Program-made: the position numbers and the translations under genes | Shown here: piece by piece, positions 58,580 through 63,136 of the stretch | Position numbering within the stretch: the stretch's first letter is position 1 | Layout of the letters: the number at the start of each line of letters is the position of its first letter | Notes under the pieces: model-generated | What the model was told of the DNA's origin: nothing | Databases searched by the model: none | Seen by the model: the letters and a program-made list of their open reading frames with translations, nothing else | Source: Candidatus Woesebacteria bacterium | Lineage (GTDB): Bacteria; Patescibacteriota; Microgenomatia; UBA8517 | Assembly: GCA_016432365.1 (NCBI GenBank) | Contig: CP066686.1 | Span: 273,771 to 337,770, forward strand | Direction of reading: 5' to 3' | DNA length: 64,000 nt

Positions 58580-59554
58580 ATGCCACGTAAAATCGAGATC
58601 TCTCATAAAACAATAATTTTTTCAGTTTTCTTTCTGATTTTTTTGTGGTTTCTTTTTTACATTAAAGATCTGCTTTTACAGCTTTTTATCGCGCTCCTCT
58701 TTACTACAATTCTTGACCCTTTTGTTACCAGATTGGCGTCTTTCAAGATTCCAAGAGGTATCGCTATTCTTTCATCTTATGTTTTGATCTTGGGGCTTTT
58801 AGGTGGAATTATTGCACTCCTGGCCCCGCCGCTTGTAGAGCAGACAACGAATTTTGCAAATTCGCTTCCGGGCTATATTTCTCAATTGGGTATACCTCCA
58901 GTGGTTAGTTCAGAAGTAAATCGCGAGTTTTTGACGAGGGTGGGCAGTATTCCGGGACAGCTTCTTGTATTTGGGGCAAGCCTTTTGGCGAATGTAGTAT
59001 CAGTTTTGGCAGTGTTAGTTTTTACTTTTTATCTGCTTCTTTCCAGAAACAAGCTGGATGAGCAACTTGGACTTTTCTTTGGCACAGAGAAAGCAGGGAA
59101 GCTGGTTGATCTTTTGGCTAGGCTTGAAGGAAAGTTGGGAGGCTGGGCCAGGGGTGAGCTCACTTTAATGTTCCTTGTTGGTTTGCTTAATTATATTGGG
59201 TTAACAATTTTAGGAATGCCTTTTGCACTGCCGTTGGCAATTCTTGCAGGTTTATTCGAAGTTATCCCTTATTTAGGGCCACTTGTTGCGGCAATCCCCG
59301 GAGTTTTAATTGGTTTTGGGATTTCCCCTGTTACGGGTTTTGGTGTTGTGATCATGGCGATACTAGTTCAACAACTTGAAAATTATGTATTTGTTCCGAA
59401 AATAATGGGAAAGTCAGTTGGGGTTTCTCCGATTATTATTCTTTTGGCGTTTGCGATAGGAGAAAGACTGGCTGGTGTAGTGGGAATGATAATCTCCGTA
59501 CCTTTTGTAATCACGCTTCAGGTTTTGGCACAAGAGTATCTTGTGAAAGATTAG
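58580..59554 (+). CDS. AI-2E family transporter (PerM/UPF0118)
   Basis: 8-TM protein with conserved QLENYVF.P motif. Confidence 0.85.
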   Translation: MPRKIEISHKTIIFSVFFLIFLWFLFYIKDLLLQLFIALLFTTILDPFVTRLASFKIPRGIAILSSYVLILGLLGGIIALLAPPLVEQTTNFANSLPGYISQLGIPPVVSSEVNREFLTRVGSIPGQLLVFGASLLANVVSVLAVLVFTFYLLLSRNKLDEQLGLFFGTEKAGKLVDLLARLEGKLGGWARGELTLMFLVGLLNYIGLTILGMPFALPLAILAGLFEVIPYLGPLVAAIPGVLIGFGISPVTGFGVVIMAILVQQLENYVFVPKIMGKSVGVSPIIILLAFAIGERLAGVVGMIISVPFVITLQVLAQEYLVKD

Positions 59555-59562
59555 ATATCCAC

Positions 59563-59781
59563 AAAAAATCCCGCATGTGCGGGATTTTTGTACTCTAGAG
59601 AGTAGTAAGCCATTTTCGCTACGCTCAAATGTCTTGGCTTCTCTCTAGTGCACGATACGAAAAACCCCTCCTTATGGAGGGGTAAATCGTACTCTAGAGA
59701 GTAGTAAGCAAATCTTGCTACTCGTTATCCATAAAAAATCCCACGAAAGTGGGATTTTATATACTCTAGAGAGTAGTAAGC
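59563..59781 (-). repeat. three tandem modules of (rnpB 3'-terminal 21-mer GCTTACTACTCTCTAGAGTAC plus intrinsic-terminator hairpin)
   Basis: The antisense 20-mer TACTCTAGAGAGTAGTAAGC occurs identically at 59591-59610, 59690-59709 and 59762-59781. Each copy is flanked by a hairpin of different sequence that conserves the stem (ATCCCGCA/TGCGGGAT; CCCCTCC/GGAGGGG; ATCCCAC/GTGGGAT) next to a T-run. Confidence 0.7.
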
Positions 59782-60115
59782 CAGGTTCTGTTAGGCCCTG
59801 AACAAATTTCAGGGTTTGACGATCATCCATCTAACGCCCTCGAACTTCGGAACGTGGCTCGATTACTCGAGCCGTTGGTAAAGCTCCTGTAACGTTCCTT
59901 TCGGAGGTTGCAGCGGGGAGGATTGCCTCTTTTCACTCGTTTTTCCCTACCTTTAGGGTAAGAAAATCGACATAGTCTCTGTGGCTCTAACTGGCTACAT
60001 TCCTTGCGGAACATATCCCAGGCTTACGCCTGGCACCCTGCTTTTCTGCTGCCTGGACTTTCCTCCCCTCATAGCCTTGCGGCGACGTGGGGCGATCATC
60101 CTTTCTCTAGAGTGA
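59762..60115 (-). ncRNA. rnpB: RNase P RNA (bacterial type A)
   Basis: The reverse complement carries GAGGGGAGGAAAGUCCAGGC (P4 5' strand, CR-I) and AGCAGGGUGCCAGGCGUAAGCCUGGG (the P10-P12 region). It also has AGGUAGGG.AAAA.GAGUGAAAAG (CR-II-like) and a P18 hairpin followed by ACAGAACCUGGCUUAC (CR-V, P4 3' strand). P1 pairs ACUCUAGAGA with UCUCUAGAGU. Confidence 0.8.
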
Positions 60116-60124
60116 AACTAGTAT

Positions 60125-60153
60125 AGCAGAATAACCCCAAAGAATCAATGGTA
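60125..60153 (-). promoter_or_regulatory. promoter TTGATT-17-TATACT (minus strand) for rnpB, overlapping the pyrH 3' end
   Basis: Reverse complement read directly. The -10 box lies about 7 nt before the P1 5' strand. Confidence 0.4.
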
Positions 60154-60178
60154 TTATAGGCTATTCTACTATAACCAT

Positions 60179-60895
60179 CTAGGAAACTAAAGTTCCCGTT
60201 TTTTCTCCCTGAAGAATTTTGTCGAGATTTTTCAATTCTTTAATATTGAAGACTATTATTGGCATGTTATGTTTTTGGCATAATGCAAAAGCTGTCGCGT
60301 CCATCACCTTTAGATTTTTCTCTATTGCCTCTTGGTATGTTAATTTATCGTAAAATGTTGCGTTTGGATTAATTTTTGGATCTTCCGAATATACTCCGTC
60401 GACATTTGTGGCCTTTAAAATTACGTTGCAGTGCATTTCTATTGCACGTAGGGCAGCCCCACTGTCTGTGGTGAAGAATGGATTTCCGGTTCCGGCCGTG
60501 AATATCACAATTCTCCCCTTGTCGATGTGTCTCATGGCACGCCTTCTAATATATGGTTCGGCCACCGACTTGATCTCAAAGGCTGTCATCATTCTGGTTG
60601 GTGCACCGGTTCGCTCCAATGCGTCCTGAAGAGCAATACCGTTTATTATTGTTCCCAACATCCCAATATAGTCCGCGGCAGCTTCATCCACATTTGTCGA
60701 CCTTTCTCTGCCTCTGAAAATATTTCCGCCACCTACAACTATTGTCAGTTCAACACCGGTCTTTTTCCAAATGTCACATATTTGTAGAGCTATCCTTTCG
60801 AAGTTTTCAAAGCCAATCCCTTTTCCGTCTTTTTCACCAAACAATTCTCCGGAAAGTTTCAGAAGCACTCTTTTGTATTTGAGTTTTTTCTTCAA
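60179..60895 (-). CDS. pyrH: UMP kinase
   Basis: Amino-acid kinase fold (KLSGE..., VVGGGN, TAGTGNPFF). Confidence 0.9.
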   Translation of the reverse strand: MKKKLKYKRVLLKLSGELFGEKDGKGIGFENFERIALQICDIWKKTGVELTIVVGGGNIFRGRERSTNVDEAAADYIGMLGTIINGIALQDALERTGAPTRMMTAFEIKSVAEPYIRRRAMRHIDKGRIVIFTAGTGNPFFTTDSGAALRAIEMHCNVILKATNVDGVYSEDPKINPNATFYDKLTYQEAIEKNLKVMDATAFALCQKHNMPIIVFNIKELKNLDKILQGEKTGTLVS

Positions 60896-62524: not shown

Positions 62525-63136
62525 ATGACTTCTGAAATAGAAATTCCTCAATGGATGTCAAGAACAAGTAGAGCGTTGACGGGCAGAGAACACAGAGCGA
62601 TCTTTTCAAGAGATCGAAAAGCAGGAGTGGAAGTGAAAAAAGAAACACTTATTAAAACATTGGATAGATGTTTGTATTATTGGAATTTTTTAAAAATTGA
62701 TAATGCTTTGGAGGGTGTTGCAAAAGCGTTTGATCTGAGGATTGCTTATAAACTTGTAAGAGGTTACAACGCAAGTATCCCTGTAGAAAAACATGATACC
62801 GCAGAAGCACTTGGCAAAAAAATATTGTCTGCTGTTAGTTTAAAAGATGAAGATGTTAGAACGATTGTTAATACGGGTATAGAAACAAGACTTGTTTCCG
62901 AGGACGATTCTCAGAGGTTCACAGAATTTAGCTTAGCCCTATATAACGATTCAATCTTTGTAGGTTCTACACAACCCGAGCCGAGTAAAAACGACACCAG
63001 TTATTTGGTTAGTGTTACCCAGGATTTAGGAAATCCAGTCAATATTAAGAGTTCGGAGGTTTTCAGATATGGACTGGATGGATATTTGGCGGACCTTGTA
63101 GCAAACTATCCGACCTTTTTTCCAAAGAAAAGTTAA
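62525..63136 (+). CDS. hypothetical protein (203 aa)
   Basis: ORF with promoter TTGACT-17-TAGACT 8 nt upstream. Confidence 0.5.
   Translation: MTSEIEIPQWMSRTSRALTGREHRAIFSRDRKAGVEVKKETLIKTLDRCLYYWNFLKIDNALEGVAKAFDLRIAYKLVRGYNASIPVEKHDTAEALGKKILSAVSLKDEDVRTIVNTGIETRLVSEDDSQRFTEFSLALYNDSIFVGSTQPEPSKNDTSYLVSVTQDLGNPVNIKSSEVFRYGLDGYLADLVANYPTFFPKKS

What the first reader, a model, noticed from the sequence alone, without database searches (positions are those of the whole stretch)
59555..60160. Unannotated RNase P RNA on the minus strand followed by a triplicated 3'-end-plus-terminator module with compensatory hairpin substitutions
The reverse complement of 59762-60115 contains the universally conserved RNase P RNA blocks: the P4 strands, CR-I, CR-II, CR-V and a P18 hairpin. 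Downstream of its 3' end, the terminal 21-mer GCTTACTACTCTCTAGAGTAC (P4 3' strand plus P1 3' strand) is repeated twice more at 72- and 99-nt spacing. Each copy is followed by a different but structurally equivalent GC hairpin plus T-run, a covariation signature of selection on structure. At first glance the array resembles a short CRISPR-like repeat array, which it is not. It could reflect tandem duplication used as redundant termination or 3'-processing, decoy P1/P4 strands, or a recombination scar. I am not aware of a described equivalent.
Basis: partly seen in the sequence, partly recalled or inferred. Interest (0 to 1): 0.7.

Follow-up and report, generated by a model that had tools for sequence, protein, structure and literature searches.

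The report
RNase P gene with stacked terminators
This is an ordinary RNase P RNA gene of a Woesebacteria (candidate phyla radiation) genome, followed by two leftover copies of its last 21 bases, each with its own terminator hairpin; E. coli has long been known to carry the same kind of repeat behind its RNase P RNA and tRNA-Tyr genes, so it is a curiosity, not a new system.

Summary
Rfam places a full-length class-A RNase P RNA at 59761-60111 (-), 105.9 bits against a cut-off of 100. Its last 21 nt recur exactly at 59689-59709 and 59590-59610 (spacing 72 and 99 nt; 0 expected). Each copy is followed by a stable hairpin plus T-run.

Two details are wrong. P18, P13 and P14 are absent, and the hairpin near the 3' end sits at the P19 position. 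The "covariation" is one compensated base pair between terminators 1 and 3; terminator 2 is unrelated.

All eight other distinct related rnpB loci examined lack the 171-nt extra block; one of them (L048) has a separate duplication of its own. Module 3 is the ancestral 3' end plus terminator (100% to L002; same terminator and flank in L055). Module 2 is the GW2011_GWB1_39_10 allele (98% over 50 nt), extended into a palindrome by an inverted copy of the 3' end. The gene itself is a mosaic, and rnpB orientation flips among close relatives.

I read the array as a recombination or template-switch scar at a hairpin-rich hot spot that now acts as three tandem terminators. E. coli K-12 rnpB (113 bp x 3.5) and tyrT/tyrV (178 bp x 3.1) show the same principle. 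Interest is low to moderate.

The parts
60120..60148 (-). Promoter-like site for rnpB: TTGATT, 17 nt, extended -10 TGcTATACT. It ends about 8 nt before the RNA start.
   Evidence: Consensus scan, 9/12 with TG. Coordinates. The same region is conserved in GWB1_39_10, L055 and L053. Function is inferred.
59761..60111 (-). rnpB: class-A RNase P RNA, reduced form without P13/P14 and P18.
   Evidence: Rfam RF00010, 105.9 bits, E 2.3e-31, full model. Orthologues in relatives score 89-123 bits.
59796..59814 (-). Extra 7-bp hairpin at the P19 position (between the P2 3' strand and the P4 3' strand). It is part of a 25-nt insertion shared only with the GWB1_39_10-type genomes.
   Evidence: Insertion relative to the Rfam model. 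In the alignment of 9 loci it is identical in L041/L045/L046 and absent in L002, L005, L048, L049, L051, L024 and L042. L055 has a different insert.
59761..59781 (-). Copy 1 of the 21-mer: the real 3' end of the RNA (end of the P4 3' strand plus the P1 3' strand). Last base is T instead of C.
59733..59758 (-). Terminator T1: AAAATCCCAC-TTTC-GTGGGATTTTTT, an A-tract/T-tract (bidirectional type) hairpin. It is followed by ATGGATA, a copy of the permease-proximal flank.
   Evidence: Fold -14.0 kcal/mol, z -4.6. 33 nt at 79% to T3, including TGGATA. Function as a terminator is inferred.
59710..59732 (-). Spacer 1 (ATGGATAACGAGTAGCAAGATTT).
   Evidence: No homologue in any fetched locus or in the rest of the window. 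No significant similarity to rnpB bodies.
59689..59709 (-). Copy 2 of the 21-mer (stub; the P4 3' strand upstream of it is not retained).
   Evidence: Exact match. With T2 it matches the GWB1_39_10-type rnpB 3' end plus terminator, 98% over 50 nt.
59660..59683 (-). Terminator T2: ACCCCTCC-ATAA-GGAGGGGTTTTT. It is unidirectional (no T-run on the other strand).
   Evidence: The only hairpin in this intergenic region (59555-60178) flagged by the strict terminator scan. -19.0 kcal/mol, z -4.9. The same hairpin is the sole rnpB terminator in L041/L045/L046.
59633..59656 (-). Inverted partial copy of the 3' end (ATCGTGCACTAGAGAGAAGCCAAG). It pairs with copy 2 across T2, or with copy 3.
   Evidence: 19-nt arms, 16/19 complementary, flanking T2. 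P about 1e-5. The extended hairpin folds at -36.5 kcal/mol, z -8.4; pairing with copy 3 gives -23 kcal/mol, z -4.6. It is the only part of spacer 2 with a detectable source.
59611..59659 (-). Spacer 2. It contains the inverted stub. Its last 12 nt resemble the 12 nt before copy 2.
59590..59610 (-). Copy 3 of the 21-mer (stub). It sits at the ancestral position of the rnpB 3' end.
   Evidence: Exact match. Copy 3 plus T3 is 100% identical over 53 nt to the single rnpB 3' end and terminator of L002. In L055-L058 the terminator and flank are the same as here.
59563..59589 (-). Terminator T3: AAAAATCCCGC-ACAT-GCGGGATTTTTT, bidirectional type. It lies 9 nt from the stop codon of the convergent AI-2E-family permease gene (58580-59554, +).
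   Evidence: -15.5 kcal/mol. ORF list. Orthologous terminator in L002, L005, L042 and L055.

Best explanation
What it is. The locus is a normal, reduced class-A rnpB gene of a Candidatus Woesebacteria genome. It is transcribed from a sigma-70-like promoter and ends at T1. Downstream lie two non-functional 21-nt stubs of the RNA's 3' end. Each stub has its own intrinsic terminator, and an inverted stub lies between them.

How it arose (inferred).
- The rnpB locus of this clade is a recombination hot spot rich in palindromes: the P1 strands, CTCTAGAG, and bidirectional terminators.
- The ancestral arrangement was core, then T_A, then the permease stop. It survives as module 3.
- A GWB1_39_10-type 3' cassette (core plus T_B) and an A-type cassette with a few bases of permease-side flank (core, T_A1, TGGATA) were added upstream of it instead of replacing it.
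- The route would have been illegitimate or unequal recombination, and/or snap-back template switching at the terminator hairpins. Template switching would also explain the inverted stub.

How it works now (inferred).
- The array acts as three tandem Rho-independent terminators.
- T1 makes the RNA's 3' end; T2 and T3 catch read-through.
- T1 and T3, being bidirectional, also stop the convergent permease gene from transcribing antisense into rnpB.
- The stubs are passengers. They are identical either because they were functional 3' ends until recently or because they were recently copied.
For: Gene and repeats are real.

The array is derived.
- In a 9-locus alignment the ~171-nt block is absent from all 8 relatives.
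- L002, L005, L024, L041/45/46, L042, L049 and L055-58 have one module each.

The modules match alleles seen singly elsewhere.
- Copy 3 plus T3 matches L002 at 100% over 53 nt, and has the same terminator and flank as the closest relative L055.
- Copy 2 plus T2 matches the GWB1_39_10 type at 98% over 50 nt.
- Flanking genes are only 83-90% identical.

Recombination inside the locus.
- The window has an L048/L049-like P15-17 region (93% and 86%) but the 25-nt P19-site hairpin of GWB1_39_10.
- L055 has GWB-type P15-17 but another P19 insert and T_A3.
- All four character combinations occur.

Rearrangement hot spot. rnpB is inverted relative to the permease gene in L053 (permease 93.5% aa identical) and in L024/L042.

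Palindrome involvement.
- There is an inverted copy of the 3' end across T2 (16/19, P about 1e-5, -36.5 kcal/mol).
- The same layout (3' end, terminator, inverted 3' end, direct stub, second terminator) arose independently in L048, where a 52-nt module is duplicated at 71% identity.

Literature.
- Template switching that creates or extends hairpins is an established mutational process (papers PMC5453318 and PMC10710096, found).
- Extended outer stems raise terminator efficiency, including E. coli rnpB T1 (PMC3643576).

Precedent. E. coli rnpB and tyrT/tyrV carry tandem units that each include the RNA's 3' end.
Against: - No transcript data, so use of T1, T2 or T3 is not shown.
- The order and mechanism of events cannot be reconstructed uniquely. 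Spacer 1 and most of spacer 2 have no detectable source.
- The 33-nt similarity between the regions around copies 2 and 3 suggests a local duplication, whereas the T_B and T_A3 identities suggest allelic exchange. Both may be needed.
- Perfect identity of the 21-mers beside diverged flanks could also mean selection on the stubs.
- Stubs behind rnpB in two Woesebacteria lineages and in E. coli could reflect a selective advantage and not only mutational propensity.
- L001 may derive from the same reads as the source genome, so it is an independent assembly, not an independent sample.
Confidence: 0.6

Rival explanations
1. The stubs are selected for an RNA-level role. In read-through transcripts the extra P1/P4-3' strands and the inverted stub could offer alternative closing helices. 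They could act as decoys that keep the ribozyme core from mispairing. Or they could form long duplexes (3' end, terminator, anti-3' end) that mark read-through RNA for RNase III or exonuclease trimming. That would be a 3'-end quality-control device.
For: - The 21-mers are 100% identical while the adjacent sequence differs.
- The extended hairpins are very stable (-36.5 and -23 kcal/mol, z -8.4 and -4.6; L048 z -6.0).
- A similar architecture arose independently in L048 and, in principle, in E. coli.
- In all three cases the stub keeps the P1 3' strand but not the AGAACC part of the P4 3' strand.
Against: - Seven of the 9 related loci, including the closest relatives, do without stubs, so any function is dispensable.
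- Module identities are explained by their being functional 3' ends in other lineages.
- No promoter-like site lies inside the array.
- No Rfam family matches there above noise.
- No expression data.
Confidence: 0.15
2. The array is old, and relatives lost modules. An ancestor of the window, L055, L002 and GWB1_39_10 lineages already had the three-module array. Each relative then resolved it by deletion between the 21-nt direct repeats and kept a different terminator.
For: - Each of T_B and T_A3 is found alone in a relative, at the same position.
- Direct repeats of 21 nt are good substrates for deletion (general knowledge).
- The GWB1_39_10 junction GGGGTTTTTGTTTGTGGATATC could arise by deletion between the two T-runs.
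Against: - It needs at least three independent losses against one or two gains.
- A-type single terminators are also present in distant relatives (L005, L042, L024, L051). This indicates that a single module is ancestral.
- Modules are 98-100% identical to relatives whose flanking genes are only about 84-86% identical, which fits recent exchange better.
- It does not remove the need for recombination to explain the mosaic gene.
Confidence: 0.15
3. The repeats are att-site scars. Integrative elements that target the 3' end of rnpB (as many do with tRNA and tmRNA genes) integrated serially. Each brought a replacement 3' end plus terminator and displaced the old one, and the elements were later deleted.
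For: - Direct repeats of the 3'-terminal ~21 nt of an RNA gene, each with a different downstream sequence, are what such integration produces (general knowledge).
- The core contains the near-palindrome TACTCTCTAGAGTA.
Against: - Only 51 and 78 nt lie between copies, and there is no integrase or cargo.
- No further copy of the core occurs in the 64 kb window.
- No viral or proviral contig in IMG/VR carries the core, exact or degenerate.
- No paper links rnpB to an attB in the searched library.
- The sequence after copy 1 is chromosomal-type (T_A plus the permease flank), not element-type.
Confidence: 0.06
4. Assembly artefact, or a CRISPR-like array.
For: Three short repeats with unique spacers look superficially CRISPR-like. 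Repeats can be collapsed or expanded by assemblers.
Against: - The repeats (21-33 nt) are shorter than reads, and the 21-22-nt exactly identical stretches are shorter than the k=31 of Logan (from memory). The Logan contig crosses the whole array and is identical to the window.
- The repeat is the 3' end of rnpB.
- The spacers are unequal and consist of terminators.
- No CRISPR repeat family matches in the array: none in the window at gathering threshold, and the only weak CRISPR-DR hit of the permissive scan (16.4 bits, E 1.9) lies inside the gene.
Confidence: 0.03

Closest known systems
E. coli rnpB 3'-flanking repeats: 113 bp x 3.5 (Reed & Altman 1983, PNAS 80:5359, cited from memory; the paper was not held)
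   Same: They lie immediately downstream of rnpB on the same strand. Each unit holds a copy of the last ~24 nt of the RNA (CGGCTTATCGGTCAGTTTCACCTG) followed by a Rho-independent terminator. The stub lacks the AGAACC part of the P4 3' strand. Verified here in K-12 MG1655. The 3'-end sequence occurs 1-9 times per genome across 5426 E. coli genomes.
   Different: The E. coli units are a homogeneous head-to-tail tandem repeat (equal length, 96% identical) that also includes the P2 3' strand. Here the modules are unequal (72 and 99 nt) and share only 21-33 nt. They carry different terminators that match alleles of other lineages, and they include an inverted stub. There is no sequence homology between the two arrays; the origins are independent, in a different phylum.
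E. coli tyrT/tyrV 3' repeats: 178 bp x 3.1, the rttR/tpr region (Egan & Landy 1978, from memory)
   Same: A stable-RNA gene is followed by tandem units that each begin with the gene's 3'-terminal ~19 nt, the 3' strand of the closing helix.
   Different: It is a tRNA gene, not rnpB. The units are long and homogeneous, and they encode an sRNA and a small peptide. Termination there is not by one hairpin per unit, as far as I recall.
Tandem and extended intrinsic terminators of stable-RNA genes (e.g. rrnB T1-T2, rnpB T1; Cambray et al. 2013, PMC3643576)
   Same: Several hairpin/T-run terminators sit in series behind a highly expressed RNA gene. A-tract/U-tract outer stems and flanking complementarity extend the core hairpin, and this was measured to raise efficiency for rnpB T1. 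T1 and T3 here have such A/T outer stems, and T2 has a long outer stem.
   Different: Those terminators are not accompanied by copies of the gene's 3' end. Efficiency here is untested.
Template-switch (snap-back) mutations that create or extend hairpins, and tandem-inversion duplications (Loytynoja & Goldman 2017, PMC5453318; Monttinen et al. 2023, PMC10710096; Kugelberg/Roth TID model, from memory)
   Same: There is a direct-inverted-direct arrangement with a junction at a pre-existing palindrome (the terminator). The inverted segment is a copy of the immediately adjacent sequence, including the T2-specific ACGAT. L048 has the same layout.
   Different: The inverted segment has small indels. 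T2 and T3 differ, so a single template-switch event does not explain the whole array. The mechanism is inferred from the pattern only.
attL/attR duplications left by integrative elements in tRNA and tmRNA genes
   Same: There are direct repeats of the 3'-terminal part of an RNA gene, and the gene remains intact.
   Different: No element, integrase or cargo lies between the repeats, and no attP-bearing contig was found.

Membership tests
Bacterial RNase P RNA class A (Rfam RF00010) | Covariance-model score at or above the gathering score over the full model | tested here: met
   105.9 bits against 100, model 1-367, E 2.3e-31.
Bacterial RNase P RNA class A (Rfam RF00010) | Universal core: both P4 strands, GAGGAAAGUCC (CR-I), ACAGAAcCuGGCUUA (CR-V), and P1/P2/P3 closing helices | tested here: met
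   All are aligned with high posterior probability in the cmscan alignment and conserved in 9 related loci.
Bacterial RNase P RNA class A (Rfam RF00010) | Peripheral helices P13/P14 and P18, typical of class A | tested here: not met
42 model positions (P13/P14) and the P18 hairpin are deleted, and there is an extra hairpin at the P19 position.
rnpB 3'-flanking tandem repeat of the E. coli type | Directly downstream of rnpB, same strand; each unit contains a copy of the RNA's 3'-terminal nucleotides | tested here: met
   Copies at 59689-59709 and 59590-59610. E. coli reference checked.
rnpB 3'-flanking tandem repeat of the E. coli type | Each unit contains an intrinsic terminator | tested here: met
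   T1-T3 hairpins plus T-runs, -14 to -19 kcal/mol. Terminator activity itself was not tested.
rnpB 3'-flanking tandem repeat of the E. coli type | Units are head-to-tail copies of one sequence, with equal period and high identity | tested here: not met
   Periods are 72 and 99 nt. Only 21-33 nt are shared, T2 is unrelated to T1/T3, and an inverted stub is present. Tandem Repeats Finder was not run on this region.
rnpB 3'-flanking tandem repeat of the E. coli type | Common descent with the E. coli units | tested here: not met
   There is no similarity beyond the universal GGCTTA of P4. Arrays are absent from the nearest relatives, so the origin is independent.
CRISPR array | Several near-identical repeats of ~23-50 nt, similar-length unique spacers, usually cas genes, and a repeat that is not part of another gene | tested here: not met
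   There are three copies, and the first is the 3' end of rnpB. Spacers are 51 and 78 nt and made of terminators. No CRISPR-DR family matches in the array. Flanking genes are pyrH, comM and a permease.
Integrative-element att duplication in an RNA gene | Direct repeats of the gene's 3' part bound an inserted element that encodes an integrase | tested here: not met
   51 and 78 nt between copies, no ORF of that kind, no other copy in the window, and none in IMG/VR.
Template-switch / tandem-inversion duplication product | Direct-inverted-direct copies of one short segment, with a junction at a pre-existing palindrome | tested here: inconclusive
   The arrangement is present (copy 2, T2, inverted stub, copy 3; 16/19 arms, P about 1e-5) and is repeated in L048. 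But the terminators after the two direct copies differ, and the second junction has no clear palindrome.

The most novel reading that the evidence does not exclude
Two readings are not excluded.

(a) The 3'-terminal 21-mer of rnpB could be a preferred crossover site. Woesebacteria lineages would then exchange and stack 'terminator cassettes' through it.

(b) Stubs of the closing-helix 3' strand behind stable-RNA genes could be recurrently selected as a quality-control device for read-through transcripts. They occur in two Woesebacteria lineages, in E. coli rnpB and in E. coli tyrT. The device would work through alternative or decoy pairing, or through long duplexes around the terminator.

Either reading would turn a 40-year-old E. 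coli oddity into a general principle.
Probability: 0.1. Interest if true: 0.55.

Novelty: new variant of a known kind. Interest (0 to 1): 0.3.

Why it matters
- The gene itself matters only for annotation. These reduced Woesebacteria RNase P RNAs score 89-123 bits against a gathering score of 100, so many relatives fall below threshold and would be missed by pipelines.
- The stub/terminator stack shows that the old E. coli observation (copies of a stable RNA's 3' end repeated in its 3' flank) recurs independently in a very distant, tiny-genome phylum.
- The related genomes catch the process in the act. They show single-module alleles, a mosaic gene, orientation flips and a second independent duplication.
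- This makes the locus a small natural model for how intrinsic terminators turn over by duplication, template switching and recombination.
- It does not reveal a new molecular system.

Tried and rejected
1. Exact look-up of the 238-aa pyrH ORF found nothing. The database gene call is the 229-aa version.
2. Literature searches for the 1983 E. coli paper and for rnpB as an integration site found nothing usable. I verified the E. coli repeats directly on K-12 instead.
3. The degenerate 18-mer scan of GTDB genomes gave 37 loci, of which only 3 were relevant (L024, L041, L042), all single-copy. The JGI metagenome scan gave only two GWB1_39_10-type contigs. Two IMG/VR scans gave nothing.
4. I tested whether spacers 1 and 2 are decayed rnpB sequence, that is, an internally deleted old gene copy. 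A MAFFT alignment suggested similarity to the L055 3' region. Shuffling shows it is not significant (p 0.35-0.93). Only the inverted 3'-end copy stands out. Rejected.
5. I tested whether the 'inverted stub' is a direct remnant of the rnpB 5' end (P1 5' strand). It gives a poorer match than the inverted copy of copy 2 plus its T2-specific ACGAT flank, and in L048 the inverted copy includes the AGAACC complement, which the 5' end lacks. Rejected.
6. A permissive Rfam scan of 59300-60300 gave only sub-threshold terminator-like noise besides rnpB.
7. The small hairpin formed by spacer 1 with copy 2 is not better than shuffles (z -0.9).
8. Control: the window's only tRNA gene (tRNA-Pro) has no downstream copy of its 3' end.
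9. Logan contigs of the source strain (L001, L047) break inside rnpB. These breaks fall in a stretch conserved among many Woesebacteria, not in the repeats.
Full report
**1. The observation**

The minus strand of 59761-60111 matches Rfam RF00010 (bacterial RNase P RNA, class A) over the whole model: 105.9 bits against a gathering score of 100, E 2.3e-31. A sigma-70-like promoter with an extended -10 (TTGATT, 17 nt, TGcTATACT; 60148-60120) ends about 8 nt before the RNA start.

The 21-mer GCTTACTACTCTCTAGAGTAC occurs three times on the minus strand:
- 59761-59781, the true 3' end, with one mismatch
- 59689-59709, exact
- 59590-59610, exact

There are no other matches in 64 kb at up to 3 mismatches, and none in 100 shuffles. 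Spacing is 72 and 99 nt.

Each copy is followed by a hairpin plus T-run:

| Terminator | Coordinates | Energy (kcal/mol) |
|---|---|---|
| T1 | 59733-59758 | -14.0 |
| T2 | 59660-59683 | -19.0 |
| T3 | 59563-59589 | -15.5 |

A Logan assembly of run SRR12113420 (L001) is identical through the whole array. The 21-22-nt exactly identical stretches are shorter than Logan's k-mer size (k=31, from memory), so an assembly artefact is very unlikely.

**2.

- The Rfam alignment shows that P13/P14 (42 model positions) and P18 are missing. The hairpin CCCTGAAATTTGTTCAGGG (59796-59814) lies between the P2 and P4 3' strands, which is the P19 position, not P18.
- The repeat is larger than 21 nt. Copies 2 and 3 share 33 nt at 88%. 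T1 and T3 share 33 nt at 79%, including the downstream TGGATA.
- T1 and T3 differ by one compensated stem pair (CCCAC/GTGGG against CCCGC/GCGGG) and by their loops. T2 is an unrelated hairpin. So there is very little true covariation.
  - With copy 2 it forms a 19-nt, 16/19-complementary outer stem around T2. The chance probability is about 1e-5. The whole hairpin folds at -36.5 kcal/mol, z -8.4.
  - It can alternatively pair with copy 3 (-23 kcal/mol, z -4.6).

**3. Context and organism**

- rnpB lies downstream of pyrH (60179-60895, -) and converges on an AI-2E-family permease gene (58580-59554, +). The permease stop codon is 9 nt from T3. comM/yifB follows on the other side.
- Homologues of the permease and ComM are almost all from Candidatus Woesebacteria / Patescibacteria.
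- The exact proteins are QQG42061-QQG42063 of an NCBI Woesebacteria MAG with a 1.08-Mb contig.

**4. Related loci**

I obtained rnpB 3' regions from ten other lineages.

| Locus | Relatedness | rnpB 3' end and flank |
|---|---|---|
| L055-L058 | closest; permease 89.8% nt, last 400 nt 94.8% | one module: core, then T_A3 and flank, the latter two identical to window module 3 |
| L002 | permease 95% aa | one module; copy plus T_A3 100% identical over 53 nt to window module 3 |
| L041/L045/L046 (GW2011_GWB1_39_10 type) | comM 84.6% nt | one module whose terminator is the window's T2; 98% over 50 nt including the 21-mer |
| L049 | comM 89% aa | one module with an A-type terminator ending TTTTTTTATGG, as in T1 |
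| L005, L024, L042 | more distant | single A-type terminators |
| L051 | comM 85% aa | A-type terminator; only 53 nt of downstream flank available |
| L048 | comM 91% aa | independent second case (below) |
| L053 | permease 94% aa | rnpB inverted relative to the window; 3' flank not seen |

- In a joint alignment of nine loci, the window has about 171 nt that all eight relatives lack.
- The spacers have no homologue in any fetched locus or in the rest of the window. They are not significantly similar to rnpB bodies; only the inverted 3'-end copy stands out.
- In L048 the 52-nt '3' end plus terminator' module is duplicated 96 nt downstream at 71% identity, with compensated stem changes. An inverted copy of the P4'/P1' strand sits right after the first terminator. 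This is the same layout as in the window: direct copy, terminator, inverted copy, direct copy, terminator.
- In a simple survey, 2 of 9 Patescibacteria loci have downstream stubs.

**5. The locus recombines**

Segment identities and the alignments show incompatible character distributions.

| Genome | P15-17 region | Hairpin at P19 site | Terminator |
|---|---|---|---|
| Window | L048/L049-like (93% / 86%) | 25-nt hairpin, identical to GWB1_39_10 | T_A1, T_B, T_A3 |
| GWB1_39_10 | replaced, GWB type | 25-nt hairpin | T_B |
| L055 | GWB type | a different insert | T_A3 |
| L049, L048 | ancestral type | none | A-type |

All four combinations of two unique characters occur. That requires recombination within a few hundred bases.

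In addition, rnpB with its promoter is inverted relative to the permease gene in L053 (permease 93.5% aa identical to the window's). There the promoter begins about 12 nt after the stop codon. rnpB is co-directional in L024 and L042. pyrH is present or absent between rnpB and comM. The site is therefore a rearrangement hot spot.

**6. Interpretation**

- Module 3 is the ancestral 3' end and terminator, left in place.
- Module 2 is a GWB1_39_10-type cassette that has been extended into a long palindrome.
- Module 1 is an A-type cassette that still carries 6-7 nt of the permease-side flank, so it was copied from a complete '3' end, terminator, flank' unit.
- The array is thus a stack of alternative 3' cassettes. 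It would have been produced by illegitimate or unequal recombination, and/or by snap-back template switching at the palindromic terminators.
- Template switching that creates inverted copies of adjacent sequence and extends hairpins is well documented (PMC5453318, PMC10710096).
- I cannot order the events uniquely. Two routes fit about equally well:
  - a tandem duplication giving modules 1 and 3, followed by insertion of the T_B palindrome with a 33-nt duplication; or
  - two successive additions.
- An alternative is an old array with differential loss in relatives. It needs at least three losses, and it fits poorly with 98-100% module identity against 84-86% flank identity.

Functionally, the most likely consequence is plain. 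There are three tandem Rho-independent terminators behind a highly expressed RNA gene that faces a convergent gene. T1 and T3 have A/T tracts on both sides and so are bidirectional; T2 works only in the rnpB direction. Extended outer stems are known to improve terminators, including E. coli rnpB T1 (PMC3643576). All of this is inference; there are no transcript data.

**7. What is known**

- In E. coli K-12 MG1655, rnpB is followed by 3.5 tandem 113-bp units at 96% identity. Each contains AGATGAATGACTGTCCACGAC, then CGGCTTATCGGTCAGTTTCACCTG (the 3' end of M1 RNA), then the terminator AAAACCCGCTTCGGCGGGTTTTT.
- The 31-nt M1 3' end occurs 1-9 times (median 2) per genome in 5426 complete E. coli genomes.
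- This matches my recollection of Reed & Altman 1983, which I could not retrieve.
- The tyrT/tyrV locus has 3.1 units of 178 bp, each starting with the last ~19 nt of tRNA-Tyr.
- In E. coli as here, the stubs keep the P1 3' strand and GGCTTA but not the AGAACC of P4.

The window differs in three ways. Its modules are heterogeneous and match different alleles. It contains an inverted stub. And it clearly arose independently, in another phylum.

**8. Rivals**

- A selected RNA-level role for the stubs is not excluded (about 0.15). The closest relatives manage without stubs.
- att-site scars of integrative elements are unlikely (about 0.06). There is no element or integrase, no other core copy in 64 kb, and nothing in IMG/VR.
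- CRISPR and assembly artefact are rejected.

**9. Verdict**

The finding is real and the description is largely accurate, but it is not a new kind of system. It is an ordinary reduced rnpB gene plus a recombination-derived stack of 3'-end stubs and terminators: a new, heterogeneous variant of a phenomenon known from E. coli since around 1980. Interest is 0.3. The most novel reading left open is the 21-mer as a cassette-exchange site, or stubs as a conserved read-through quality control. I give that about 10%.

Noticed in passing
L053:1228-1297 against window 59555-60178; also L024:1452-1830 and L042:1975-2350: The rnpB gene with its promoter has opposite orientation relative to the same permease gene in close relatives. 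L053 (permease 93.5% aa identical to the window's) has permease then rnpB, co-directional, with the promoter about 12 nt after the stop. The window, L002, L055 and GWB1_39_10 are convergent. pyrH is present or absent next to rnpB in different lineages.
   Followed up: partly
window 59796-59814; L041:2026-2050; L055:4045-4080: The J2/4 (P19) position of rnpB is an insertion hot spot. There is a 25-nt hairpin insert in the window and GWB1_39_10, a different ~35-nt insert in L055-L058, and none in seven other relatives.
   Followed up: partly
window 59827-59896 against L041:1930-2000 and L055:4105-4175: The P15-P17 region is completely replaced in GWB1_39_10 and L055 by a longer sequence containing the direct repeat AATCTTAAGAG. 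The window keeps the L048/L049-like version, so the window gene is a mosaic.
   Followed up: partly
rnpB hits in L005-7, L024, L041, L049, L051, L055-6: Most of these Woesebacteria RNase P RNAs score below the Rfam gathering threshold (89.1, 96.1, 96.6, 99.6, 99.8 bits against 100). Threshold-based annotation would miss them; the window's gene passes only narrowly (105.9).
   Followed up: no
L055:4440-4600 (between pyrH and the rnpB promoter): L055 and L056 have about 150 nt of extra hairpin-rich sequence here (e.g. ATTCCGTA...TACGGAAT) that is absent from the window and GWB1_39_10. It may be a small inserted element.
   Followed up: no
L001 end (window ~59926) and L047 end (window ~59907): Two Logan contigs of the same strain, from two runs, both stop inside rnpB at the stretch GGCAATCCTCCCCGCTGCAACCTCCGA. 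This stretch is identical in many Woesebacteria. It is probably a de Bruijn graph branch caused by co-occurring relatives, not by the repeats.
   Followed up: partly
window 58980-59554 against L055: The last 400 nt of the permease gene are 94.8% identical to L055, but the first 575 nt only 86.4%. This suggests a recombination boundary inside the gene next to the rnpB locus.
   Followed up: no
window 62525-63136 (+): A 203-aa ORF between comM and dtd has no Pfam hit on record for its gene call in L047. Relatives carry different genes at this position (P-type ATPase, MFS transporter).
   Followed up: no
L052 (E. coli K-12 NC_000913.3 3269846-3270238): The number of places matching the M1 RNA 3' end ranges from 1 to 9 per complete E. 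coli genome (median 2). The 113-bp repeat behind rnpB therefore seems to be copy-number polymorphic within the species.
   Followed up: no
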